Source: a virus
Taxonomy: Duplodnaviria; Heunggongvirae; Uroviricota; Caudoviricetes
Length of the DNA stretch: 64,000 nt
Virus record (IMG/VR): IMGVR_UViG_3300028591_000140
Strand: one strand, 5' to 3'
Below the pieces are notes generated by a model. It made no database searches and had not been told where the DNA came from. It saw nothing but the letters and a program-made list of their open reading frames with translations. The position numbers and the translations under genes were made by a program. Below are positions 12,427 through 63,991 of the stretch, piece after piece (the first letter of the stretch is position 1; the number at the start of each line of letters is the position of its first letter).

Positions 12427-13353
12427 TCAAATCATGTCCCAAATCTGGCCATCGACATTGAAATTGAGGTGAATATTTCTCCGGCAGAGGTCGCTATCGA
12501 GCTGATAATCTCTCATAAAGGAGTCCATATAGCCGAAATCAACACAATCGTCACCGGCTCCTTTGTACCAACCACAGACTGCACCGGCCGGAGTACGAGC
12601 CATTCCGAGAGCATCCAGCACCTCATTCATGAATACGTGACCCCTCTTCTGGAGCATGTCATTGAAGAAATTCTGTGTCTGACGAAGGAATGCTTCCGTG
12701 TAATCAGGGTTCGGATTCCAGGTCAAAGGGGCTGTATGACGGTTGAAGTCGAACTCATACGGGGACTTTTTGTGGTCTTTGATGACTAAATTGTTTCCGG
12801 AAGCCTTGGTCACAGTCCCATCTTCTCCTTCAACCATGATTCCTTTCTCAACTTTGCCACCGGCGAGAAGCACTTTCTCAGCATCCTCGCCAATAACCTC
12901 TGCAACACGCCCTCTGTAGCCCAGGAAAGCCTCCTGAAGGGCAGCATAAGCCGCTGTGGTGTTCAGATATCTTTGCTTCAGAACACCGTGAGAGAGCAGG
13001 AAAAGGGCAATAGAGGCGATTTCCAGGCCGATTGCAGGGGCCAGAGCACGAGCAATCTTCCAGACCATGCGATTATATGCCTTCCAGTTCATCTCTTTTA
13101 CGTCTTTCTCGAGAGGAACCGGCCAGTTATTCTCTTTAGCCTCTTCGACCTTCTTCTGAATATCATCCAGATCCTTGTGGCAGTCTTCAACAGCCTTGGT
13201 CACATGCTTGGCACAGAGGCATCCGGCGACCACAGCACCGATTCCACAGGCAATACCACCTGCAAGAGCCAGTTCAGGGCTGATTTTACGCAGTTTCATA
13301 TATCCTTTGATGGCCAGAGTCTTAGCCGCATTCGTATTAATAGGGAGTTTCAT
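12427..13353 (-). CDS. Two-TM membrane protein, member 1 of a 3-paralog family (with 27655..28569 and 28832..29635)
   Basis: Two N-terminal TM helices, A/E/K-rich linker, conserved C-terminal W/Y-rich domain shared with the two paralogs. Confidence 0.55.
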   Translation of the reverse strand: MKLPINTNAAKTLAIKGYMKLRKISPELALAGGIACGIGAVVAGCLCAKHVTKAVEDCHKDLDDIQKKVEEAKENNWPVPLEKDVKEMNWKAYNRMVWKIARALAPAIGLEIASIALFLLSHGVLKQRYLNTTAAYAALQEAFLGYRGRVAEVIGEDAEKVLLAGGKVEKGIMVEGEDGTVTKASGNNLVIKDHKKSPYEFDFNRHTAPLTWNPNPDYTEAFLRQTQNFFNDMLQKRGHVFMNEVLDALGMARTPAGAVCGWYKGAGDDCVDFGYMDSFMRDYQLDSDLCRRNIHLNFNVDGQIWDMI

Positions 13354-17457: not shown

Positions 17458-17534
17458 TGGTCCAAGTGGCGAGACTCGAACTCACGGCCTCTTGATCCCA
17501 AATCAAGCGCTCTAACCAACTGAGCTACACCTGG
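17458..17534 (-). tRNA. tRNA-Pro (anticodon UGG), CCA encoded
   Basis: Hand-folded cloverleaf: acceptor CCAGGTG/CACTTGG with the C1:G72 pair typical of bacterial tRNA-Pro. D-arm GCTC-AGTTGGTTA-GAGC, anticodon arm CTTGA-TTTGGGA-TCAAG, T-arm GTGAG-TTCGAGT-CTCGC, discriminator A, CCA. Confidence 0.8.
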
Positions 17535-21335: not shown

Positions 21336-21812
21336 TTAATTTTCCTTTCTTTTATTACGTTTTAGTGACTCAAAGTCCACATGTTCACCAGTTGTGTGAA
21401 TAAGGGAAAGGGTTCCATCTTGGATAACAGATCCGTCATTCAAATATAAGCCATCAAAGAACCCCGTCATGATTCCTGTTCCGTCTGGACCATAATAGAT
21501 CCTTGTTACCATGAAAATGGCGTCAGGATCCTGCGGGTAATAGCAAATATCACCTACTTGAATGGGATCAACATGTATGGTATTTGAAGAGGCGATCATC
21601 TCCATATGATTGAAGTCAATTTTACCTTCACTAACAAGGTAATCGAACTTTGCCAAAGCTTCCTCTTCGGAATCGGCATAGACATTAAAATAGTCTACAA
21701 AAGTTTCTTCATGCCGAATTTTATATATCATGCGTTGTCCTTTCTTATTCTGTATGTTTAGGGAATGTTGCGACGTACTTAAAAACACACTGGGACATGA
21801 ATTTTGCATCAC
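21336..21812 (-). CDS. Hypothetical protein; paralog of 22082..22549
   Basis: N-terminal YFNVYADSEEEALAKFDYLVSEGKIDFNHMEMIASS versus YFEVEADNEAEAMDAYQHLVQEAKIDYGDMEMVDSS. Confidence 0.5.
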   Translation of the reverse strand: MMQNSCPSVFLSTSQHSLNIQNKKGQRMIYKIRHEETFVDYFNVYADSEEEALAKFDYLVSEGKIDFNHMEMIASSNTIHVDPIQVGDICYYPQDPDAIFMVTRIYYGPDGTGIMTGFFDGLYLNDGSVIQDGTLSLIHTTGEHVDFESLKRNKRKEN

Positions 21813-22140
21813 CAGGCCAATCCTGATACTCTCGATAACGCTTTATGGTAAATATCTCTTCGCCATTTCGAAAGTATTGACAGAAATCGCCCTGGGTGTT
21901 TTCGCGTTTGGAGAATTCTTCTGGATGCTCTGAAACATAATCGGGAGTTAATCCACATTGTTCCAGGCATTCCTTTAAGAATTCGTCGTATTTCTTGGCA
22001 ACATCTTGAGCATAAGCTTGAATGAAATCCTGAAGCTGCTCCAGTTCAGTGATGTCAGGCTGATAGGAGTCCAGTAGTCTCTTATCCATTAATTTTGATA
22101 GGCCACACTTTTTCTGTTCCAAACATGAATATGGAGGCAT
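21745..22140 (-). CDS. Hypothetical protein
   Basis: 131-aa ORF. Confidence 0.4.
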   Translation of the reverse strand: MPPYSCLEQKKCGLSKLMDKRLLDSYQPDITELEQLQDFIQAYAQDVAKKYDEFLKECLEQCGLTPDYVSEHPEEFSKRENTQGDFCQYFRNGEEIFTIKRYREYQDWPGDAKFMSQCVFKYVATFPKHTE

Positions 22141-22549
22141 CTGAACCTCTGGTGAAAACTAAAGCTGGATAAGTTCGACCGGTTCTCCAGATACGATCGG
22201 GCGAAAGCACTTCCTTTTGAATAACCGTTCCATCATGTCGAATTGCGTCGAATTCCATCCAGGACTTCATGTTTCCATCTTCGCCATTTGAAAATCGTCT
22301 CCGAATGCTGGTGATGATAAAGTGACGATCTTCTGGATGAATTTTATCGGCAGCCCAGAAGCATTCTTGTCCGACTTCAAAATTCTCTCGGATCAACTTG
22401 TCGGATGAATCCACCATCTCCATATCACCGTAGTCGATCTTTGCTTCTTGGACCAAATGCTGATAAGCATCCATGGCTTCTGCCTCATTATCGGCCTCGA
22501 CTTCAAAATATCCGACCAGTTCCTCTCTGTGTTCAATTTTAAATTTCAA
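22082..22549 (-). CDS. Hypothetical protein; paralog of 21336..21812
   Basis: See the paralog entry. Confidence 0.5.
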   Translation of the reverse strand: MKFKIEHREELVGYFEVEADNEAEAMDAYQHLVQEAKIDYGDMEMVDSSDKLIRENFEVGQECFWAADKIHPEDRHFIITSIRRRFSNGEDGNMKSWMEFDAIRHDGTVIQKEVLSPDRIWRTGRTYPALVFTRGSDASIFMFGTEKVWPIKING

Positions 22550-23096: not shown

Positions 23097-24530
23097 TTAC
23101 CAGGTGTACTCGCTGATCTTCTTCTCGAGAGATCCGACACCTTCCTCAGCCAGGAGGATGAAGTCGAAGACCTTCTCAGACCAGCCGGCGATGATATTAG
23201 TCTTTTTGCCGTAGAACTGCTGGGTGCCATAACCCTGAAGATCCACAGCGTGAACCCAAATATCATTTCCGGTCTCCCGACGATACCGATCAGCCAGAGA
23301 CTGAACAGGAGCTCTCCAACTGGAGTTGCACTCGTTGTCGGAAAGGATGATGATACGGTCAGCCTTGATCTTCTGCTGGGTCATGGCCATGAACGGAAGC
23401 TCCATATAGGTTCCTCCGCCGCATCTGCTGGACGATACTGCCTCCAGAATGCTGACTCGCTTCGGAACAGTGACGTTCTTGATCTGGTTATTGAACGTGT
23501 AGACGACAGCGTCCTCACAGATCCGATTAGCGATCAGACCGAGCATGAAGGAAATATCACAGCAGCGGACATCGGATTTGTCGCTGACAGGATCGCTCAT
23601 AGATCCGGAAATATCAATCGCAATGACCGTCTTTCCCGGAATCTTGGGCAGGTTGGAGATCGAAGCGTCCAGAGCATCCTCAAGCACATCATAGGTCTTG
23701 CTGGTGCCGAGGCCCTCATTCTTCAGAGTCCTGTATGCCGACAGGAATCGGAACGGGAGCTGCTTGGACTTCCTGACCGCCACAGGATCACGAAGTTTGG
23801 CGTAGACATCATCCAGGTTATACGGATCAGCCTTAATGATGTTGCGCAGGTTTCTCATCATAGCCATGTAACCGAGCTTCTTGCCTTCGATGAGATCCTC
23901 CCAAACCTCTTTCTTGTTTCCTCTGGCGCTGAGCTGAGTCTCCCAGGTTTCAGGGATCTCCATGGTTCCCTCAATGCAGCGCTTCCAGAGTGCAGCCTGC
24001 TCACCATTCATAGGCTTGGGACGGCAGAGACACAGGAGGTCACGCATCTTGACGGACTTGGAATCACCCTTATACTTGGCGAGGCTGTACTCATCCAGGG
24101 TCTTGAGGACATCGCCGATTCCCTTCTTCAGAGAGTTGGGGATGGGCTTGCCGAAGGTTGCGAGGTAGTAAGACATGATCTCAGTGATGTCGTCTGCTCT
24201 CACGGCAACACCTTTGACTGTCTGGCGCACGAAAGGTTTACCCTCAGGTGCATGGGCGAGATGGGCCGTCAGGACATGAGAAATGGACCTCATGTTAAAC
24301 TCCCGTCTGGCAAAGACAGCGAGATTGCTGACAAACTCGGGATCAGCCTTGATGACTCGATCCAGAGTCTCCAGAATATCATCGCTGTTGTCCCCATAAA
24401 ACTTCTTCTCGTTGAAGAAGCTGGTGAGGACCTGAGTGACGAGCTTGGATTTGTCGGCCATAGAGTATGCGACATGTCCTTCGTGGTTGGTCGTGCGAAT
24501 GGTGGGTCTCGGGGAATTGAACTTAGCCAT
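23097..24530 (-). CDS. rsr: Ro60/Rsr-like protein: TROVE domain plus C-terminal vWA domain with MIDAS motif
   Basis: vWA MIDAS DISGSM (VIAIDISGSMSD). Size about 477 aa from ATG at 24530 with SD GGAGGTG. Long helical TROVE-like N-terminal region. Sits immediately upstream of the Y-RNA-like array. Confidence 0.6.
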   Translation of the reverse strand: MAKFNSPRPTIRTTNHEGHVAYSMADKSKLVTQVLTSFFNEKKFYGDNSDDILETLDRVIKADPEFVSNLAVFARREFNMRSISHVLTAHLAHAPEGKPFVRQTVKGVAVRADDITEIMSYYLATFGKPIPNSLKKGIGDVLKTLDEYSLAKYKGDSKSVKMRDLLCLCRPKPMNGEQAALWKRCIEGTMEIPETWETQLSARGNKKEVWEDLIEGKKLGYMAMMRNLRNIIKADPYNLDDVYAKLRDPVAVRKSKQLPFRFLSAYRTLKNEGLGTSKTYDVLEDALDASISNLPKIPGKTVIAIDISGSMSDPVSDKSDVRCCDISFMLGLIANRICEDAVVYTFNNQIKNVTVPKRVSILEAVSSSRCGGGTYMELPFMAMTQQKIKADRIIILSDNECNSSWRAPVQSLADRYRRETGNDIWVHAVDLQGYGTQQFYGKKTNIIAGWSEKVFDFILLAEEGVGSLEKKISEYTW

Positions 24531-24689
24531 AGTTTGGCACCTCCGAAAAATTTTTATAGTAGGGAAAATATGATGGACCTCCCGTCTAAACAGAGAAAAG
24601 CAAAGTCGGATAAATGGTTTTTGGAAAAGTGGTGCAGACACTTTTAAAAATATGTTCATCTTGAAGTAACCGACTTTAACACTACTGTC

Positions 24690-24836
24690 CAGACAGGAGG
24701 TACCAAAACAAACCGAGAATTTCTGAAGCGCTTTAAAAGACAGTCCGGGATGGGCTGTTTATAGGATTCGAACCTATTAAAAACGAGTATTAATCATTTT
24801 ATTAACCGAAGTAAGCGCATCATACACTGCGGTAGT
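24690..24836 (-). ncRNA. Y-RNA-like (YrlA-like) tRNA-mimic module Y5
   Basis: Minus-strand order: GCAGUGUAUGAUGCGCUUACUUC, then T-arm AUAGG-UUCGAAU-CCUAU, then acceptor-like hairpin (AAACAG ... CUGUCUUU), then GCGCUUCAG-AAAUUCUCGG tail. Boundaries approximate. Confidence 0.4.
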
Positions 24837-25049
24837 TTTGCAGAATATAAATAGGTCTTAGATGCGATGAATTCGAGAGCGGTTAAAAATCGTCACGGTG
24901 AACGAGAAGCCGCGGCGATTAAAAAGCAGCGGACTCAAGAGAAAGGCAAAGACTTAAGCCGCCGAAAAAGTACAAGGAGGTCTTGTATGAAAATCATCAT
25001 CTTGAAGTAACCGACCTCTGCAATGCACATCTAAGACCTTGTGGAGAAT

Positions 25050-25173
25050 GCGGAGAATATCTGAAACGGTTTAATTTTGCTTTTTGCTCTACCGACTGAG
25101 CTACATCTCAAAATGAGAAGATAAGATTCGAACTTACGACAGAAAAGGAAGTAACCGTTTCATTCACTACCGC
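25050..25173 (-). ncRNA. Y-RNA-like (YrlA-like) tRNA-mimic module Y2
   Basis: Minus strand: GCGGUAGUGAAUGAAACGGUUACUUCC (GGUAGUGA matches the conserved Ro-binding-stem sequence of Y RNAs); T-arm GUAAG-UUCGAAU-CUUAU; closed acceptor hairpin CUUCUCA-UUU-UGAGAUG; D-arm UA-GCUC-AGUCGGUA-GAGC; then AAACCGUUUCAG, complementary to UGAAACGGUU of the 5' part. Confidence 0.5.
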
Positions 25174-25178
25174 ATAGT

Positions 25179-25310
25179 TGGCGAGGATGACCGGAATCGA
25201 ACCAGTGTCGTCGGCAATTACAGTGCGAAGTAACCATTTCATACACTTCAAATATAATTGAGGAAAACTGAAAAGGTACATTACGCCGTTCTACCACTGA
25301 ACTACATCCT
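25179..25310 (-). tRNA. tRNA-like gene with about 58-nt internal insertion: perfect 7-bp acceptor GAGGAUG/CAUCCUC, D-arm, T-arm, encoded GCCA; anticodon-like loop CUGUAAU (GUA, Tyr-like)
   Basis: 5' half GAGGATG-TA-GTTC-AGTGGTA-GAAC-G at 25286-25310; 3' half ACTGG-TTCGATT-CCGGT-CATCCTC-G-CCA ending 25179. Between them lies GCGTAATGTACCTTTTCAG ... GAAGTGTATGAAATGGTTACTTC, the same helix element as in the Y-RNA-like modules. Insertion position (D-arm/anticodon-stem junction) is non-canonical. Confidence 0.5.
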
Positions 25311-25384
25311 CGAAATATAGGCCGAGCAATTCAAATTCGCTTTTAAATTCAATAAATTAGCATAATATATCATGCTTTGCGTAA

Positions 25385-25470
25385 CCACACGCCTGTATAC
25401 AAATACAGATAGGAGTCGAACCTATGAACTCGTTGAAGTAAGCGGATCTCTCACTACGGCCTGAATTGTA
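25385..25470 (-). ncRNA. Y-RNA-like module Y3 (more degenerate)
   Basis: GGCCGUAGUGAGAG ... CUUACUUC, T-arm AUAGG-UUCGACU-CCUAU, acceptor hairpin CUGUAU-UUGU-AUACAG, D-arm-like GCGUGUGGUUACGC. Confidence 0.35.
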
Positions 25471-25499
25471 GGAAGGAGGAGCCGAGAAAACCAAAGTCA

Positions 25500-25612
25500 G
25501 ATAAAAACTTGAAGGGGTGATGTAACAAGACAGCCTTCAAGGGTCGAGTAACTAACTCTAAATTATGGCAGTTGAAGTATCTGGCTTCTGCACTACGGCT
25601 CTTATGGATTAA
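25500..25612 (-). ncRNA. Y-RNA-like stem element Y4 without tRNA-like domain; ends in a hairpin plus U-run
   Basis: GAGCCGUAGUGCAGAAGCC ... CUUCAACUGCC, then CUUGAAGG/CCUUCAAG 8-bp hairpin followed by UUUUUAUCUG (intrinsic terminator-like). Confidence 0.35.
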
Positions 25613-25821
25613 AAATATGATCCCAAATACGATAAAATTGATCTCGGTTGAGGTGTATTGATGGAAAAGGAGATCAAAGAATGGATGAAGGGAGACGACC
25701 TTTCTTTAGTCTCTAAGGTCATAAAGAGTCCGCAAAGCCAAGGAGGTACGTCAAATTTTATGTTCTTCGAAGTAACCGAGCTCTGCAATGCGTATTCGGG
25801 ATCAAGGGTGGATCTGCGGAG

Positions 25822-25947
25822 AAAAAGCTGAAACGGTACATATAGCGCTCTATCCGACTGAGCTACCACTCTGAACGAGTAGACTGGATTCGAACCAATG
25901 ACCTCTTCATCCCTAATGAAGTAACCGTTTCATACACTGCCGCAGCG
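25822..25947 (-). ncRNA. Y-RNA-like (YrlA-like) tRNA-mimic module Y1
   Basis: Minus strand: GCGGCAGUGUAUGAAACGGUUACUUCA; variable-arm-like hairpin CUUCA-UUAGGGA-UGAAG; T-arm AUUGG-UUCGAAU-CCAGU; closed acceptor-like stem CUACUCG-UUC-AGAGUGG; D-arm UA-GCUC-AGUCGGAUA-GAGC; GUACCGUUUCAGC pairing with UGAAACGGUUAC (10 bp, one bulged U); then UUUUU. Confidence 0.5.
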
Positions 25948-25950
25948 GAA

Positions 25951-26112
25951 TTATTCAGGTTTGGATTTCATTCCGTACTTCTTGCCGTCCGAAGCGACAA
26001 AAATATACTTATGCGGGATCAAAGTATCTGCTCCCACAAGGCAGGCGCAGATCAGATAGGTAACACCGATGCTTCCGAGACTTTTGGCAATGGCTACCGC
26101 AACGTCTTTCAT
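25951..26112 (-). CDS. Possible 53-aa small membrane protein (MKDVAVAIAKSLGSIGVTYLICACLVGADTL ...)
   Basis: ATG with upstream GGA-rich SD; hydrophobic core. Not in the supplied ORF track (below 60 aa); lies inside the ncRNA array. Confidence 0.3.
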   Translation of the reverse strand: MKDVAVAIAKSLGSIGVTYLICACLVGADTLIPHKYIFVASDGKKYGMKSKPE

Positions 26113-26254
26113 TTGTGTTCCATCCTTTCTAAATTACAGAAAAATATAGAGCGGAGAATATCTGATGTGGTCTAAATTCAAACAGCTTTCGAAGTAACCA
26201 CCTCATACACTTCCGCTCTCTATCATAAAAGCTGTATTTTTTGCGAATTTGCGC

Positions 26255-26545
26255 TTACTCTTCGATTTCGTCTACCGGCATGTCCGGGCAGTCAATCTCA
26301 TCGACTTTGTTGAGAAACTCCTCGGCAATATCAATCCAGATGTCTGCACATTTGCTCCAGCCGGCAGCCATGACCATAACATAACGCCAGATTCCGTCTG
26401 GTTCGGCATGAATGAATTTCTTGGCAAGATTGAGATAGAATCTACCCTTTTTATCACATCGGCCAGACAGCTTATGTGCTTTCTTTCCGATTCTATAGAA
26501 CCAGTCTCTCTGATTCTTGGACCAGCCACCGGAAATATCAGCCAA
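26255..26545 (-). CDS. Hypothetical protein
   Basis: 96-aa ORF. Confidence 0.45.
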   Translation of the reverse strand: MADISGGWSKNQRDWFYRIGKKAHKLSGRCDKKGRFYLNLAKKFIHAEPDGIWRYVMVMAAGWSKCADIWIDIAEEFLNKVDEIDCPDMPVDEIEE

Positions 26546-27654: not shown

Positions 27655-28569
27655 TTACCTCCACTTCATATCGGTTTCGTCATCATCCAGCTCATAGTCC
27701 AGACGCTGAGCATCTTCGCCATTACTGTCCTCAAGATTGAGATGCCACTTCGGAGCGCCAGACTTCGTGAAGCCGATCACATGGGCCACACTATCATCGG
27801 ACAATTGAATGGCCGTGATCTTCAGCTCAATCGGGCAATTGAACCAGCCGAAGTCCTTACCGATCTTAACGCCATTCGGAAGAGTATCATCTGCATTGAT
27901 GTGCTCATCACTCGCCGGCAGATCCAGATATTCACGCCAAGTATCGTAACAGACTGCGGACTTTCTCATACCCCAGCGAGTATGAGTCATTTCCAGATTG
28001 AGTTTTTCGGTCATTTTCCGAATGAAGTCCAGATCAGACCAGTAATAGTCGTGAAGGATCGGGTCATAGCATAGTGTGTTACCATGGCCGGTGTTGATGA
28101 CCGTCGCATAGTTGACCGGATGAGACTTCACATCATCTTTCGCCATCTCATCCTTCATTTTCTCATACTCTTTCGGCCCATACTTCTCGATGACTTTCTT
28201 CTCGAGTTTCTCGGCCTCCTCTGTTTTGGTTGCCAATGCTGCCGTGGCGATGGCTGCCTGAGCATACTTGATCTTATAGCCGGCAAATATCATCGCACCA
28301 CCGCCAATGACCATTGCTGTCGGGATGCCAAGATGAAATGCCAGAATCTTTCCTTTCTCGATCAGGTACTCCTTATGAGAAAGTCCCTCCTTAGCATCGA
28401 GGGTAGCAAGCTCTGTCACCATCTTAGGCGTCTCTATGCCGGTCTTGACTGCGCCTCCTGCCATCATGCAGACACCAAATATCACTCCGACAGTCGGGGC
28501 AGCCTTGATAAGTGCTTTACCTGTGAGTTTCGCAGTTGTCTGGATTGTTTTCAGATTCAATGGAACCAT
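27655..28569 (-). CDS. Two-TM membrane protein, family member 2 (paralog of 12427..13353 and 28832..29635)
   Basis: Same architecture and conserved linker and C-terminal blocks. Confidence 0.55.
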   Translation of the reverse strand: MVPLNLKTIQTTAKLTGKALIKAAPTVGVIFGVCMMAGGAVKTGIETPKMVTELATLDAKEGLSHKEYLIEKGKILAFHLGIPTAMVIGGGAMIFAGYKIKYAQAAIATAALATKTEEAEKLEKKVIEKYGPKEYEKMKDEMAKDDVKSHPVNYATVINTGHGNTLCYDPILHDYYWSDLDFIRKMTEKLNLEMTHTRWGMRKSAVCYDTWREYLDLPASDEHINADDTLPNGVKIGKDFGWFNCPIELKITAIQLSDDSVAHVIGFTKSGAPKWHLNLEDSNGEDAQRLDYELDDDETDMKWR

Positions 28570-28831: not shown

Positions 28832-29635
28832 TCAGAATGGCAGTGGTCCCGAATCCTTGAGATACGAAATATCATTCGGATGAATCCCGTACTCCAACTG
28901 ATAGAAATGGCTGCCATCCGGATTGTCAATGATCTGAGGAGCTAACTCGATCCAAGCGCCACCATAGTAGCCAGCGCCCTCAGTGAACATCTCATCGTCA
29001 TAGCTCCAGCCAAGATGCATTGATTTGGAATTGCCTTTGAGACCAAACATGTGAAGAATACTGTCCAGATACACGGTATCCATTTGCAGGAGTCTCTTGT
29101 TAGCACAAAGTTCAACCCAGAGAATATCCTTCAGATCTGCGTAGATCCATTGCTCGCTATAGGGTTCCCAGATCTTGAACTTCTCGGATGTATTCAGGGC
29201 ATACTTATCAACTTTTTGACGGAGCTCTTTTTCTTCGGCAATTTCCTTCTTGACTTCTTTGACTGCATTCTCTCCATACTTCTCGCTGAATTTCTTCTCG
29301 AGATCCTCGCTTGCAGTCTTATAAGCCAACGCCGCAGCGGTCAGAGCAGTCTCATTGCTGACATGCCACTTATGTGCACCAATCGCACAACCCATTGTGA
29401 ATAAAGCCATCAATCCGGCCGGAATATACTTTTTCCAGTTCTTTCTGACTACTTTGCGGACTGTCTGCTTTACCGGAATATCACTGTCTTCCACAAATAG
29501 AACAGCCTCAGTGGTATCCGATAAGCAATCCAGGGTTGCCGTATAGGTTAAGTAACCCGTAGTGACAACCCCGGAACAGACAAAGCCAGTCAGAAGCGCC
29601 GGACCGTTTTTAAGGGCCCAGGTTTTCAGACTCAT
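28832..29635 (-). CDS. Two-TM membrane protein, family member 3
   Basis: Paralog of 12427..13353 and 27655..28569. Confidence 0.55.
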   Translation of the reverse strand: MSLKTWALKNGPALLTGFVCSGVVTTGYLTYTATLDCLSDTTEAVLFVEDSDIPVKQTVRKVVRKNWKKYIPAGLMALFTMGCAIGAHKWHVSNETALTAAALAYKTASEDLEKKFSEKYGENAVKEVKKEIAEEKELRQKVDKYALNTSEKFKIWEPYSEQWIYADLKDILWVELCANKRLLQMDTVYLDSILHMFGLKGNSKSMHLGWSYDDEMFTEGAGYYGGAWIELAPQIIDNPDGSHFYQLEYGIHPNDISYLKDSGPLPF

Positions 29636-62792: not shown

Positions 62793-62980
62793 TGTTCATT
62801 ATTCCTTTCTGTTTGTGATGCCGGCTCGAATATGGTTTATCACAACGAATGCAGAAAGGCAATAAGAAAAGTTACAGAATGGTTGCAGGGGCGCACGAAT
62901 GGTTTCATTTCCGCACGTATCTGTACCAAACTTTTCAAACGAAATTTGTTCAAGTGTTACAAAAATCGAGGAGGATAGCA

Positions 62981-63991
62981 ATGAAAGTACCGACCCCTAA
63001 AAGGCTCCCATCCGGATCATGGCGCATCCAATTGATGGTGAATGGACACAAATATAGCATCACAGATAAGGACCCGAAAGTCTGCAAGCAACGAGCAAAA
63101 GAGATCTATGCCGGTATTGAGCAAGAGAAACGGACAAGTCTAACCGTTGGGCAAGCAATAGACAAATATATCGAAACCCAAGAGGGGACTCTTTCTCCAT
63201 CAACTCTGAGCGTCTACAAAAGGTATCGCCGAAATTATCTCCAGCTTTTAATGCCCTGTGCGGTTAACGACCTCACTCCAGAGCTCGTCCAATTGGCGAT
63301 CAGCAAAGACTCTCAGCAAGGAAAAAGTCCAAAGACTATCCGAAATGCCTATGGACTATTGACCGCTACTCTCAAACTTTACCGTCCAAAATTCAAGCCA
63401 GAAAGCAAACTGCCCCAGAAGGAAGTACATGAAATCGTAATTCCAACTGAGACGGAGATGAAACAAATTTGGGCTGAAGCAAAAGGGACAAAATCTGAGA
63501 TCCCAATTTTGCTTGCATCCTGGCTTGGACTTCGTATGTCTGAGGTTCGTGGACTTAAATACGCAGACTTCAAAGGGAACCAAGTCCACATTCAGAGAGC
63601 TGTCGTCCGTACAAGTGATGGAGATGTTGAGAAAAAGACGAAAAGTTACTCTGGAGATCGCTGGATTACCTGTCCAAAATACATTCTCGATTTACTTGCA
63701 GCTCAAGAGAATAAGGGCGAGTATGTGTGCAGGTATTCGGAGTCCACGATCTACAATGGGTTTGTCCGAGTCTGCGAGAGAGCTGGTATCCAGCATTACC
63801 GTTTTCATGATTTACGCCATTTCGCTGCATCTGAAGCTCATTCTCTGGGGATCCCCGACAAATATCAGATGAAACGAATGGGGCACAAGACGGATAACAT
63901 GCTTAAGAATGTATACCAGCATACAATCCGAGACAAAGAAGACGCCTTCGCAACTTTAATAGATGATCATATGACTGAACTTCTGGCTTAA
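62981..63991 (+). CDS. int: Tyrosine recombinase/integrase
   Basis: C-terminal HDLRHFAAS ... MGHKTDNMLKNVYQHT (R..HxxR..Y catalytic pattern). AGGAGG SD before ATG at 62981. The only credible plus-strand gene. Confidence 0.8.
   Translation: MKVPTPKRLPSGSWRIQLMVNGHKYSITDKDPKVCKQRAKEIYAGIEQEKRTSLTVGQAIDKYIETQEGTLSPSTLSVYKRYRRNYLQLLMPCAVNDLTPELVQLAISKDSQQGKSPKTIRNAYGLLTATLKLYRPKFKPESKLPQKEVHEIVIPTETEMKQIWAEAKGTKSEIPILLASWLGLRMSEVRGLKYADFKGNQVHIQRAVVRTSDGDVEKKTKSYSGDRWITCPKYILDLLAAQENKGEYVCRYSESTIYNGFVRVCERAGIQHYRFHDLRHFAASEAHSLGIPDKYQMKRMGHKTDNMLKNVYQHTIRDKEDAFATLIDDHMTELLA

What the first reader, a model, noticed from the sequence alone, without database searches (positions are those of the whole stretch)
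23097..26240. Phage-encoded Ro60 (TROVE-vWA) gene followed by an array of tRNA-mimicking Y-RNA-like modules
The 23097..24530 product has the Ro60/Rsr architecture: a long helical TROVE-like region plus a vWA domain with a DISGSM MIDAS motif. Immediately downstream on the same strand lies about 1.6 kb without credible ORFs. It contains at least five structured modules read on the minus strand.

Three modules (Y1, Y2, Y5) share the same gene order: (a) a 5' element GCGG(C/U)AGUG(U/A)AUGAAACGGUUACUUC, which contains GGUAGUGA, the conserved 5' strand of the Ro-binding helix of metazoan and bacterial Y RNAs; (b) a canonical T-arm (NNNGG-UUCGAAU-CCNNN); (c) an acceptor-like stem closed by a 3-4-nt loop (for example CUUCUCA-UUU-UGAGAUG); (d) a canonical D-arm (UA-GCUC-AGUCGGNUA-GAGC); (e) ACCGUUUCAG, which base-pairs with the UGAAACGGUUAC of element (a) (10 bp with one bulged U in Y1).

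This is a circularly permuted tRNA topology with both RNA ends in a Ro-binding stem. It matches the architecture described for bacterial YrlA-type Y RNAs, which are often encoded next to rsr, including in phages. Modules Y3 and Y4 are more degenerate; Y4 ends in a hairpin plus U-run. Finding several tandem Y-RNA paralogs beside a phage Ro60 gene would be unusual. It suggests the phage brings its own Ro60 RNP, possibly for RNA quality control or host RNA decay, or for evasion of tRNA- or RNA-targeting defence.
Basis: partly seen in the sequence, partly recalled or inferred. Interest (0 to 1): 0.9.

Follow-up and report, generated by a model that had tools for sequence, protein, structure and literature searches.

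The report
Phage Ro60 gene with ten Y RNAs
A phage-like element from a gut or rumen Clostridia host carries a Ro60 RNA-binding protein gene preceded by ten different small "Y RNA" genes in a row; several mimic tRNA, and one is a full tRNA-shaped molecule with its own CCA tail, which makes this a large and varied example of a known system.

Summary
The finding is real and its core interpretation holds, with corrections.

- **Protein.** The 477-aa product of 24530..23097 (minus strand) is a Ro60/Rsr protein. It matches Pfam TROVE (8e-35) and vWA_Ro60 (3e-13). Its closest solved structure is the Ro60 of Thermus phage phiLo.
- **Position and number.** The RNA region lies upstream of rsr, not downstream. 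It holds ten co-oriented modules, not five, at 26218..24588.
- **Shared stem.** All ten share one stem: 6 bp, a 1-nt bulge, 2 bp, an internal loop, a 9-bp helix, then an invariant UACUUC. The helices covary between the paralogs.
- **Independent test.** A covariance model built only from distant relatives finds nine of the ten modules in the 64-kb window and nothing else. M2 scores 96 bits and M7 scores 93 bits.
- **Module types.** M2 and M7 are complete circularly permuted tRNA mimics of the YrlA type. M5 and M9 are partial. M1, M4 and M10 are hairpins. M3 and M8 have 120-nt pyrimidine-rich interiors. M6 is unpermuted: it has an open 7-bp acceptor stem followed by G-CCA, and the Y stem sits in the anticodon position.
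- **Relatives.** Related loci carry arrays of 2-7 modules, often interleaved with real tRNA genes.
- **Family membership.** The published GNCGAA motif is absent, and the Rfam YrlA threshold is not reached.
- **Verdict.** This is a new variant of a known kind.

The parts
23097..24530 (-). rsr: Ro60 homologue, 477 aa (TROVE ring plus vWA domain with the DISGSM MIDAS motif). A GGAGGUG ribosome-binding site lies 8 nt upstream of the ATG.
   Evidence: Pfam TROVE 8.1e-35 and vWA_Ro60 3.2e-13. PDB 9KOP/9L5Y (phage phiLo Ro60) E 1.7e-39. More than 5000 homologues, the closest all about 477 aa.
24588..24690 (-). M10: minimal Y RNA (shared stem plus a 52-nt interior, no tRNA-like arms), directly upstream of rsr.
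   Evidence: R1 47.3 bits, E 1e-10. R2 36 bits, E 3e-6. Fold.
24710..24835 (-). M9: Y RNA with a V-like hairpin, a T arm (AAUAGGUUCGAAUCCUAU) and one further hairpin, but no D arm.
   Evidence: R2 36.5 bits, E 2.5e-6. Compensatory G-C to A-U change in helix H2 against L008.
24856..25036 (-). M8: Y RNA with an 11-bp terminal stem (UCUUAGAUGUG / CGCAUCUAAGA). Its 120-nt pyrimidine-rich interior contains ACCUCCUU and two hairpins each followed by U5. It is a paralogue of M3.
   Evidence: The automated partner search finds the 3' strand. R2 gives a partial hit, 17.9 bits, E 0.03. The stem is conserved, with a U-G to U-A change, in L009-L011.
25048..25175 (-). M7: complete YrlA-type module, in the order Y stem 5' strand, T arm, closed acceptor-like hairpin, D arm, Y stem 3' strand.
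   Evidence: Rfam YrlA 43 bits. R2 93.4 bits, E 8.6e-19. Compensatory changes in the T, AS and H2 stems against L008-L011.
25179..25311 (-). M6: unpermuted tRNA-shaped Y RNA. It has an open acceptor stem (GAGGAUG / CAUCCUC) followed by G73 and CCA (25181..25179), a D arm and a T arm. The Y stem, closed by a loop, replaces the anticodon loop. Only 3 nt separate its CCA from M7.
   Evidence: Rfam tRNA 43.8 bits against a gathering score of 29, with a 70-nt insertion. Orthologues in L008 and L011. The same design occurs in L076, L077 and L142.
25319..25462 (-). M5: YrlA-like module with a T arm, an AS hairpin, a degenerate D-like arm (GCGU-GUGGUU-ACGC) and an extra hairpin.
   Evidence: R2 39.2 bits, E 6e-7. 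Fold. M5 and M6 are missing together in L009 and L010.
25479..25601 (-). M4: Y RNA with the variant motif AUACUUC and two interior hairpins, but no tRNA-like arms.
   Evidence: R2 32 bits, E 2.4e-5. The U-A to A-U swap at the top of H2 is compensated.
25621..25801 (-). M3: Y RNA with an 11-bp terminal stem and a 120-nt pyrimidine-rich interior containing ACCUCCUU. It is a paralogue of M8.
   Evidence: Partner search score 15. R2 gives a partial hit, 19.7 bits, E 0.012. Fold.
25814..25945 (-). M2: complete YrlA-type module that also keeps an anticodon-arm-like hairpin (CUUCA-UUAGGGA-UGAAG) and an AGGUC variable loop.
   Evidence: Rfam YrlA 38.1 bits. R2 95.9 bits, E 2.5e-19. Compensatory A-U to G-C change in the anticodon-like stem in L011.
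25951..26112 (-). 53-aa hydrophobic small ORF embedded in the array between M1 and M2. Its role is unknown.
   Evidence: The ORF is listed. It is called as a gene in L009-L011 and is 89-94% identical there.
26149..26218 (-). M1: minimal 70-nt Y RNA (shared stem plus one hairpin, UUCGAA-AGCUG-UUUGAA), of the YrlB type.
   Evidence: R1 61.8 bits, E 9e-15. R2 39.5 bits, E 5.5e-7.

Best explanation
This is a phage or prophage Ro60 ribonucleoprotein locus. Ten Y RNA genes and the rsr gene lie head to tail on one strand, separated by spacers of only 3-57 nt, apart from the M1-M2 interval, which holds the small ORF. They are therefore most likely transcribed as one precursor and cut into individual RNAs (inferred).

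Each RNA pairs its 5' and 3' ends into the same conserved stem: 6 bp, a 1-nt bulge, 2 bp (AG/CU), an internal loop (UGNA opposite a U-rich strand), a 9-bp helix, then UACUUC. This stem is the likely docking site for the phage Ro60 (inferred from conservation and from known Ro60-Y RNA biology).

The variable interiors would give each Ro60 particle a different partner or property. The interiors are complete or partial tRNA mimics, short hairpins and long pyrimidine-rich loops. The model here is the Deinococcus and Salmonella Y RNAs, which tether Ro60 to the exoribonuclease PNPase.

M6 has true tRNA topology with an encoded CCA. It is probably released by RNase P and 3' trimming like a tRNA. That cleavage would also free the ends of its neighbours M5 and M7 (inferred).

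The overall role is remodelling or quality control of structured host or phage RNA during infection, possibly including counter-defence (speculative).
For: Protein identity:
- Pfam TROVE and vWA_Ro60. The closest solved relative is phage phiLo Ro60.

Ten modules with fixed spacing:
- The 5' element has the same spacing in all ten.
- Paralogue covariation of the shared stem: 94% of cells paired against 37-46% in slid controls, and 15 of 17 pairs changed on both sides.
- An unsupervised partner search recovers the same 3' strands.

Structure in relatives:
- RNAalifold on 71 modules predicts the H2, T, AS and D helices and five pairs of the terminal stem, with 27 of 28 pairs compensated.
- On 61 modules from other loci, 95.3% of cells are paired against 38-47% in slid controls.

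Independent detection:
- Model R2, trained without the window or its close relatives, finds M2, M7, M1, M5, M9, M10, M4, M3 and M8, and nothing else in 64 kb.

Link to Ro60:
- R2 gives 231 hits in 86 loci, almost all on the rsr strand.
- An exact scan of IMG/VR for the 5' element returned 100 stretches, and 56 of 99 newly fetched loci carry a Ro60 homologue nearby.

Conservation of the array:
- Module order is conserved in four syntenic relatives with compensatory changes.

Precedent (Chen et al. 2014, PMC4201824):
- M. smegmatis YrlA is cut by RNase P and receives CCA.
- Each species has one tRNA-like and one hairpin Y RNA.

Precedent in phages:
- Phage phiLo Ro60 binds two upstream Y-like RNAs and host PNPase (PMC12135203).
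Against: - There is no expression, processing or binding data for any of these RNAs. All loci are metagenomic.
- The published Rsr-recognition motif GNCGAAN0-1G is absent, so the Ro60 contact site is inferred only from conservation.
- No promoter-like site was found upstream of M1 on the minus strand.
- The M8 interior has two hairpin-plus-U5 elements that could terminate transcription before rsr.
- No PNPase, RNA-repair or nuclease gene lies nearby, so the effector is unknown.
- R2 hits on M3 and M8 are weak (E 0.01-0.03) and partial.
- Some pairing statistics rest on strands or examples that I chose for complementarity.
Confidence: 0.82

Rival explanations
1. The modules are not free-standing RNAs. 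They form a long structured 5' leader of the rsr mRNA: repeated Ro60-binding sites that let the protein autoregulate its own synthesis or stabilise its message.
For: The modules are contiguous with rsr on the same strand. M10 ends 57 nt before the start codon. No promoter or terminator consensus separates the modules. M8 contains hairpin-plus-U-run elements that could act as attenuators.
Against: In relatives the same modules are separated from rsr by up to 14 genuine tRNA genes, or lie downstream of rsr (L014, L068, L086, L107, L113, L142). Each module closes on itself with its own covarying terminal stem. Characterised homologues are processed into stable trans-acting RNAs (PMC4201824). A protein-coding ORF sits inside the array.
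Confidence: 0.08
2. The tRNA-like modules work mainly as tRNA decoys or substitutes, independently of Ro60. They could be baits for host anticodon nucleases or other tRNA-targeting defences, or substrates that soak up tRNA-processing enzymes. On this view they are part of a phage tRNA cluster.
For: Relatives interleave the modules with real phage tRNA genes. Many modules keep an anticodon-like arm with a CU-NNN-AA loop. Nine of 61 have N-CCA after a 7-bp acceptor-like stem, against 0.8 expected. M6 is tRNA-shaped with CCA. A phage Ro60 homologue was reported as a counter to the Ppl defence system and lies directly upstream of a stretch of annotated tRNA genes (PMC11482910).
Against: Five of the ten window modules have no tRNA-like arm at all, yet keep the same conserved non-tRNA stem and UACUUC. 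The stem motif co-occurs with Ro60 genes across IMG/VR. In M6 and M7 the anticodon loop, the usual nuclease target, is missing. The decoy and Ro60-partner roles are not mutually exclusive.
Confidence: 0.07
3. The region is a conventional or decayed tRNA operon: ordinary tRNAs, tRNA pseudogenes, or an intron-containing tRNA at M6.
For: The T and D arms are canonical, and the Rfam tRNA model passes its gathering score on M6 (43.8 bits). A real tRNA-Leu sits in the orthologous array of L008.
Against: ARAGORN finds no tRNA in 24500..26300. In M2, M5 and M7 the arm order is T, then acceptor, then D, with the acceptor closed by a 3-5-nt loop. M6 lacks a 7-nt anticodon loop even after the Y hairpin is removed, and a 70-nt insertion is far too small for a group I intron. 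The non-tRNA stem is conserved and covaries across 61-71 relatives, which pseudogenes would not show.
Confidence: 0.02

Closest known systems
Bacterial and phage YrlA Y RNAs (Rfam RF02553; Chen et al. 2014, PMC4201824; Wang et al. 2018, bioRxiv 10.1101/312249)
   Same: They are encoded within 4 kb of rsr on the same strand. The 5' and 3' ends pair into a long stem. The interior is a tRNA mimic in the order T arm, closed acceptor-like hairpin, D arm, with an optional V or anticodon-like hairpin before the T arm. The YrlA model aligns full-length to M7 and M2.
   Different: Scores are 43 and 38 bits against a gathering score of 69, and no relative examined reaches it. The GNCGAAN0-1G motif is absent and is replaced by a clade-specific core: a bulge, AG/CU, UGNA and an invariant UACUUC. 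There are ten genes instead of the one to a few reported.
Hairpin-type Y RNAs: S. Typhimurium and M. smegmatis YrlB, D. radiodurans Yrn2 (PMC4201824)
   Same: M1, M4 and M10 (and M3 and M8, with large loops) are stems formed by the RNA ends, without a full tRNA-like domain. They are encoded beside a tRNA-like Y RNA and share its presumed Ro60-binding stem. M8 carries a hairpin with a pyrimidine-rich loop, as described for YrlB and Yrn2.
   Different: There is no sequence similarity. Five such RNAs occur in one locus. M3 and M8 have 120-nt interiors with CCUCCU motifs.
RNase P-cleaved, CCA-tailed M. smegmatis YrlA (PMC4201824)
   Same: M6 and its counterparts in L076, L077 and L142 present an open 7-bp acceptor stem. 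In M6 and L142 the stem is followed by N73-CCA. [quoted passage not shown]
   Different: In M6 the open acceptor is genomically encoded. The gene is in normal tRNA order, the Y stem is closed by a loop and the RNA would be a single piece. In M. smegmatis a permuted precursor is cut into two halves.
Thermus phage phiLo Ro60 with Yrl1 and Yrl2 (PMC12135203, PDB 9KOP and 9L5Y)
   Same: It is the closest solved protein (E 1.7e-39 over residues 13-465). It is phage-encoded, and its Y-like RNAs lie directly upstream of the Ro60 gene.
   Different: phiLo has two Y-like RNAs, identified through a CGAA motif, and no tRNA-like domain was described for them. The window has ten RNAs without CGAA, five of them with tRNA-like arms.

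Membership tests
Ro60 / Rsr protein family | TROVE (HEAT-repeat ring) domain | tested here: met
   Pfam PF05731, E 8.1e-35, 121 bits against a cutoff of 23.
Ro60 / Rsr protein family | C-terminal Ro60-type vWA domain with a MIDAS DxSxS motif | tested here: met
   Pfam PF25045, E 3.2e-13. The sequence reads DISGSM, and D306, S308, G309, S310 and M311 are invariant in 20 homologues.
Ro60 / Rsr protein family | NCBIfam equivalog of bacterial Rsr (NF041674, cutoff 900 bits) | tested here: not met
   Only 44 bits over residues 224-423. The protein belongs to a divergent phage clade nearest phiLo Ro60 and is not an equivalog of chromosomal Rsr.
Ro60 / Rsr protein family | Binds Y RNA on the outer ring surface | not testable with these tools
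   This needs a gel-shift assay, immunoprecipitation or a structure.
YrlA Y RNA (RF02553) | Encoded within 4 kb of rsr on the same strand | tested here: met
   All ten modules lie 58-1690 nt upstream of the rsr start codon on the minus strand.
YrlA Y RNA (RF02553) | A stem formed by the 5' and 3' ends enclosing a T arm, a closed acceptor-like hairpin and a D arm in that order | tested here: met
   Met in full by M2 and M7, partly by M5 (degenerate D arm), and by M9 for the T arm only. The helices covary in 61-71 relatives.
YrlA Y RNA (RF02553) | GNCGAAN0-1G motif near the 5' end (Chen et al. 2014) | tested here: not met
   There are zero matches on the RNA strand of 24531..26230. The positional equivalent is CGGUUAC.
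YrlA Y RNA (RF02553) | Rfam gathering score (69 bits) | tested here: not met
   43.0 bits for M7 and 38.1 bits for M2. No YrlA hit reaches the gathering score in 8 related loci.
YrlA Y RNA (RF02553) | tRNA-type modifications (pseudouridine 55, dihydrouridine) and association with Rsr in vivo | not testable with these tools
   This needs RNA from the host or phage.
Canonical tRNA gene | Cloverleaf in normal order with a 7-nt anticodon loop | tested here: not met
   ARAGORN finds none in the region. The Rfam tRNA hit on M6 needs a 70-nt insertion in place of the anticodon loop.
Canonical tRNA gene | 7-bp acceptor stem, D arm, T arm and a 3' N73-CCA | tested here: met
   Met by M6 only: GAGGAUG / CAUCCUC followed by G and CCA. 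It is conserved in L008 and L011. The three stems are 100% paired in four lineages.
Metazoan Y RNA (RF00019) | Match to the Rfam model; GGUCCGA bulged helix | tested here: not met
   No hit at E <= 10 in 24400..26500.

The most novel reading that the evidence does not exclude
M6, together with independent counterparts in L076, L077 and L142, may define a third topology of bacterial Y RNA. It is a genuine tRNA-order gene in which a closed Ro60-binding hairpin is grafted into or beside the anticodon arm. The acceptor stem is open, and in two of the four lineages it is followed by an encoded N73-CCA.

If such RNAs are matured by RNase P and RNase Z and carry a live CCA end, or are even aminoacylated, they would physically couple phage Ro60 to tRNA-handling machinery such as the CCA-adding enzyme, synthetases, EF-Tu or the ribosome. 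They would also act as tRNA-style punctuation that releases the neighbouring Y RNAs.

The N-CCA found in the acceptor loops of 9 of 61 permuted relatives would then be the same function reached by the opposite permutation.
Probability: 0.2. Interest if true: 0.8.

Novelty: new variant of a known kind. Interest (0 to 1): 0.55.

Why it matters
Why bacterial Y RNAs imitate tRNA is still an open question. This locus and its relatives offer a natural series of variants on one conserved Ro60-binding stem. The series runs from hairpin-only RNAs, through RNAs with a T arm only and fully permuted tRNA mimics (with or without CCA in the acceptor loop), to an unpermuted tRNA-shaped form with a CCA end.

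That series makes the role of the tRNA-like domain directly testable, for example through RNase P processing, CCA status, charging and partner proteins.

The family is abundant in gut and rumen Clostridia phages, is often embedded in phage tRNA clusters, and is missed by the Rfam YrlA threshold. Phage 'tRNA arrays' next to TROVE genes are therefore probably under-annotated for Y RNAs. Ten different Y RNAs for one Ro60 also suggests that a phage can build a panel of Ro60 particles with different specificities.

Tried and rejected
1. **Stem-only covariance model R1**. It found only modules with short interiors (M1, M10) because the model's window limit excludes long insertions. I replaced it with a Python partner search and with model R2.
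2. **Plus-strand small ORFs inside M3 and M8** (25658..25831 and 24867..25010). I rejected them because relatives show frame-breaking indels of 1-2 nt there and there is no usable ribosome-binding site.
3. **The 120-nt interiors of M3 and M8 as a mimic of 5S rRNA or another known RNA.** No Rfam hit appeared at E <= 10. Long-interior modules in other loci are not homologous to them.
4. **Megablast of 12 kb around the locus against INPHARED phages.** There was no match, so no isolated phage relative is available.
5. **Exact-pattern scan of IMG/VR for larger arrays**. At most 2 strict matches occurred per stretch, so it was not useful for counting. It did show the link to Ro60.
6. **Neighbouring genes checked for PNPase, RtcB, RNA ligase or nuclease partners.** None was found.
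7. **Reviews by Sim et al. 2020 and Boccitto & Wolin 2019.** Neither could be opened, so the highest Y RNA copy number reported in the literature could not be checked beyond Chen et al. 2014.
8. **A script detecting anticodon-like arms**. It mis-anchored on the TTC of TACTTC in many rows, so I used only rows with 5 T-stem pairs.

Full report
**What is there**

On the minus strand, the ORF 24530..23097 encodes a 477-aa protein. It matches Pfam TROVE (E 8.1e-35) and the Ro60-specific vWA domain (E 3.2e-13). It contains the MIDAS sequence DISGSM, whose residues are invariant in 20 homologues.

Its closest solved relative is the Ro60 of Thermus phage phiLo (PDB 9KOP and 9L5Y, E 1.7e-39 over nearly the full length). 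D. radiodurans Rsr and a chain named RNA-binding protein RO60 (PDB 9NEN) match only in the C-terminal part. The protein falls far below the NCBIfam equivalog cutoff for chromosomal Rsr (44 against 900 bits). It is therefore a Ro60 of a divergent phage clade.

The start codon at 24530 is preceded by GGAGGUG and matches the length of the homologues.

The window is phage-like. Almost every gene is on one strand. PHROG matches include a DNA polymerase-primase, a helicase, a ligase, a large polymerase, a head maturation protease and an integrase. Relatives of the Ro60 gene lie on IMG/VR viral contigs and on contigs binned into rumen and gut Clostridia genomes. No isolated phage shares the DNA.

**The RNA array**

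The 1.7 kb between 26218 and 24588 lies upstream of rsr on the coding strand.

All seven exact GGTTACTTC sites in the 64-kb window, plus two one-mismatch variants, fall here on the minus strand. Aligning their contexts shows ten modules with an identically spaced 5' element. Folding each one shows that they all share one stem, made of these parts:

- a 6-bp terminal helix (11 bp in M3 and M8);
- one bulged nucleotide on the 5' strand;
- two base pairs (AG/CU, or AU/AU in M3 and M8, a compensated change);
- an internal loop, with UGNA on the 5' strand opposite six mostly U-rich nucleotides;
- a 9-bp helix;
- the unpaired motif UACUUC.

Across the nine permuted paralogues, 94% of pair cells are standard pairs, against 37-46% when the partner strand is slid. 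Fifteen of 17 pairs changed on both sides. I had picked those 3' strands by eye. An unsupervised search for the best partner within 300 nt returned the same strands with the same loop length.

**Module types**

| Module | Coordinates | Type |
|---|---|---|
| M2 | 25945..25814 | Complete YrlA-type circularly permuted tRNA mimic; also keeps an anticodon-arm-like hairpin and an AGGUC variable loop |
| M7 | 25175..25048 | Complete YrlA-type mimic: T arm, closed acceptor-like hairpin, D arm |
| M5 | 25462..25319 | T arm, acceptor-like hairpin and a degenerate D arm |
| M9 | 24835..24710 | T arm only |
| M1, M4, M10 | see parts list | Hairpin-type, with no tRNA-like arms |
| M3, M8 | see parts list | Paralogues with 120-nt pyrimidine-rich interiors |
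| M6 | 25311..25179 | Unpermuted tRNA-shaped form |

M6 needs more detail. The Rfam tRNA model passes its gathering score on it (43.8 against 29 bits), but only with a 70-nt insertion at the anticodon. The gene runs in this order:

1. acceptor 5' strand;
2. D arm;
3. the 3' strand of the Y stem;
4. a closing loop;
5. the 5' strand of the Y stem with UACUUC;
6. T arm;
7. acceptor 3' strand;
8. G and CCA.

Only three nucleotides separate that CCA from the first base of M7.

ARAGORN finds no ordinary tRNA in the region. A 53-aa hydrophobic ORF (26112..25951) sits between M1 and M2 and is 89-94% conserved in three relatives.

**Independent statistical support**

From related loci I extracted 99 distinct tRNA-like modules. 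RNAalifold on 71 of them predicts the 9-bp helix, the T arm, the acceptor-like hairpin, the D arm and five pairs of the terminal stem. Twenty-seven of 28 pairs are compensated.

On 61 modules that exclude the window and its four close relatives, 95.3% of cells pair against 38-47% in slid controls, and 23 of 24 pairs changed on both sides.

A covariance model built from those 61 (R2) was run on the whole window:

| Module | Bits | E-value |
|---|---|---|
| M2 | 95.9 | 2.5e-19 |
| M7 | 93.4 | 8.6e-19 |
| M1 | 39.5 | 5.5e-7 |
| M5 | 39.2 | 6.2e-7 |
| M9 | 36.5 | 2.5e-6 |
| M10 | 36 | 3.2e-6 |
| M4 | 32 | 2.4e-5 |
| M3 (partial) | 19.7 | 0.012 |
| M8 (partial) | 17.9 | 0.029 |

Nothing else in the window scores below E = 1. 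E-values from this shortened calibration are rough.

Rfam's own YrlA model aligns full-length to M7 (43 bits) and M2 (38 bits) but stays under its gathering score of 69. It annotates nothing at threshold in eight relatives.

**Relatives**

Four syntenic contigs, whose Ro60 is 82-90% identical, keep the array in the same order:

- L008 has M1-M10, plus a genuine tRNA-Leu(UAA) between M8 and M9.
- L011 has M1-M9.
- L009 and L010 lack M5 and M6 as one block.

Their alignment shows compensatory substitutions in four places:

- the anticodon-like stem of M2;
- the T, acceptor-like and 9-bp helices of M7;
- the 9-bp helix of M9;
- the terminal stem of M8.

Across 86 loci, R2 gives 231 hits, almost all on the rsr strand. 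In the loci I tabulated they lie mostly just upstream of the gene. Most loci with the motif carry 1-3 modules by the strict partner-search count. L062 has 7. The window and L008 have 8 by that count and 10 by inspection.

In several phages the modules are interleaved with, or flank, arrays of 13-14 real tRNA genes.

An exact scan of IMG/VR for the 5' element returned 100 stretches, and 56 of 99 newly fetched loci carry a Ro60 homologue within the fetched DNA. This ties the motif to the protein.

The unpermuted M6 design recurs in three further lineages: L076, L077 and L142. L142 again has N73-CCA. The acceptor, D and T stems are 100% paired in all four lineages, although a perfect acceptor stem was my selection criterion.

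Nine of the 61 permuted relatives carry N-CCA immediately after a 7-bp acceptor-like strand, against 0.8 expected from shuffled loops.

**How it most likely works**

- **Shown by sequence:** the genes are co-oriented, tightly packed and followed by rsr.
- **Inferred:** there is one precursor, processed into separate RNAs. This is documented for M. smegmatis YrlA and YrlB and for D. radiodurans Yrn2-tRNA-Yrn1 (PMC4201824).
- **Inferred from conservation:** the invariant bulge, loop and UACUUC core is the docking site for Ro60. The covarying flanking helices only supply structure.
- **Inferred by analogy:** the different interiors give different partners or stabilities. The analogy is with Ro60-Y RNA-PNPase complexes in Deinococcus and Salmonella and with phage phiLo (PMC4201824, PMC12135203).
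- **Inferred:** M6, and real tRNAs in relatives, would be cut out by RNase P and 3' trimming, which would punctuate the precursor.
- **Unknown:** the biological purpose, whether RNA decay, quality control or counter-defence. One preprint reports a phage Ro60-like protein, encoded directly upstream of a stretch of annotated tRNA genes, as a counter to the Ppl defence system (PMC11482910).

**Comparison with what is known, and novelty**

Phage-encoded Ro60 with adjacent YrlA-like RNAs has been known since 2014, when 22 phages were listed (PMC4201824). Multiple Y RNAs per species are also known.

The following points are new relative to the papers I could search:

1. the size and diversity of the array, with ten paralogues of at least four types;
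2. a clade-specific conserved core in place of the published GNCGAAN0-1G motif, which has zero occurrences here;
3. the unpermuted, tRNA-order Y RNA with an encoded CCA;
4. the systematic embedding of such modules in phage tRNA clusters of Clostridia-associated phages, invisible to Rfam at its threshold.

I therefore file this as a new variant of a known kind.

**Caveats**

- Everything is computational and metagenomic.
- The Ro60 contact site, the processing and the partners are all inferred.
- Two key reviews could not be read.

Noticed in passing
window 25951-26112 (minus strand): A 53-aa hydrophobic small ORF sits inside the Y RNA array between M1 and M2. It is 89-94% identical in L009, L010 and L011. 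In L008 it is replaced by genes of 155 and 41 aa. It has no family match.
   Followed up: partly
L011 4778-4841 (same insert in L009 and L010); orthologous to the interior of window M9 at 24710-24835: The orphan Rfam motif DUF3800-VIII (RF03075) scores 48.3 bits against a gathering score of 40.2 inside the expanded interior of the M9 orthologue. An RNA class of unknown function may therefore be used as the variable loop of a Y RNA. The window's M9 lacks this insert.
   Followed up: partly
window 25746, 25479, 24980, 24700 (minus strand): The anti-Shine-Dalgarno-like sequence CCUCCU occurs four times on the RNA strand of the 1.7-kb array, against 0.32 expected. It lies in the pyrimidine-rich interiors of M3 and M8 and in two spacers. 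No explanation was tested.
   Followed up: partly
relatives, e.g. L012 3747-3885, L025 566-702, L042 3717-3857, L070 884-1019: Nine of 61 permuted tRNA-like modules carry N-CCA directly after a 7-bp acceptor-like strand in the hairpin loop, against 0.8 expected from shuffled loops. This is the look of a circularly permuted tRNA gene and suggests RNase P cleavage that exposes a CCA end.
   Followed up: partly
relatives and window M2 (25917-25901): Many modules keep an anticodon-arm-like hairpin just after UAC. It has a 5-bp stem whose 5' strand is the UUC(G) of the conserved motif, a 7-nt loop of the form CU-NNN-AA (for example GUU, UUU, GCU), and then AGGUC. M2 has the loop UUAGGGA, which is conserved in four relatives.
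   Followed up: partly
L008 4655-4739; L014, L068, L107, L113: Genuine tRNA genes are interleaved with the Y RNA modules in relatives. L008 has a tRNA-Leu(UAA) between its M8 and M9 orthologues, and other rsr loci have arrays of 13-14 tRNAs beside the modules. The window itself has only tRNA-Pro(UGG), at 17461-17534.
   Followed up: yes
window 62849-63991 (plus strand): A tyrosine-integrase-like gene (PHROG 1, E 3e-47) is the only large plus-strand gene. It lies at the window edge and may mark a prophage boundary.
   Followed up: no
window 21336-21812 and 22082-22549; 12427-13353, 27655-28569 and 28832-29635 (minus strand): Two small ORFs just downstream of rsr look like paralogues of each other, judged by eye from their translations. 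Three DUF6353 paralogues are scattered around the locus. Their functions are unknown.
   Followed up: no
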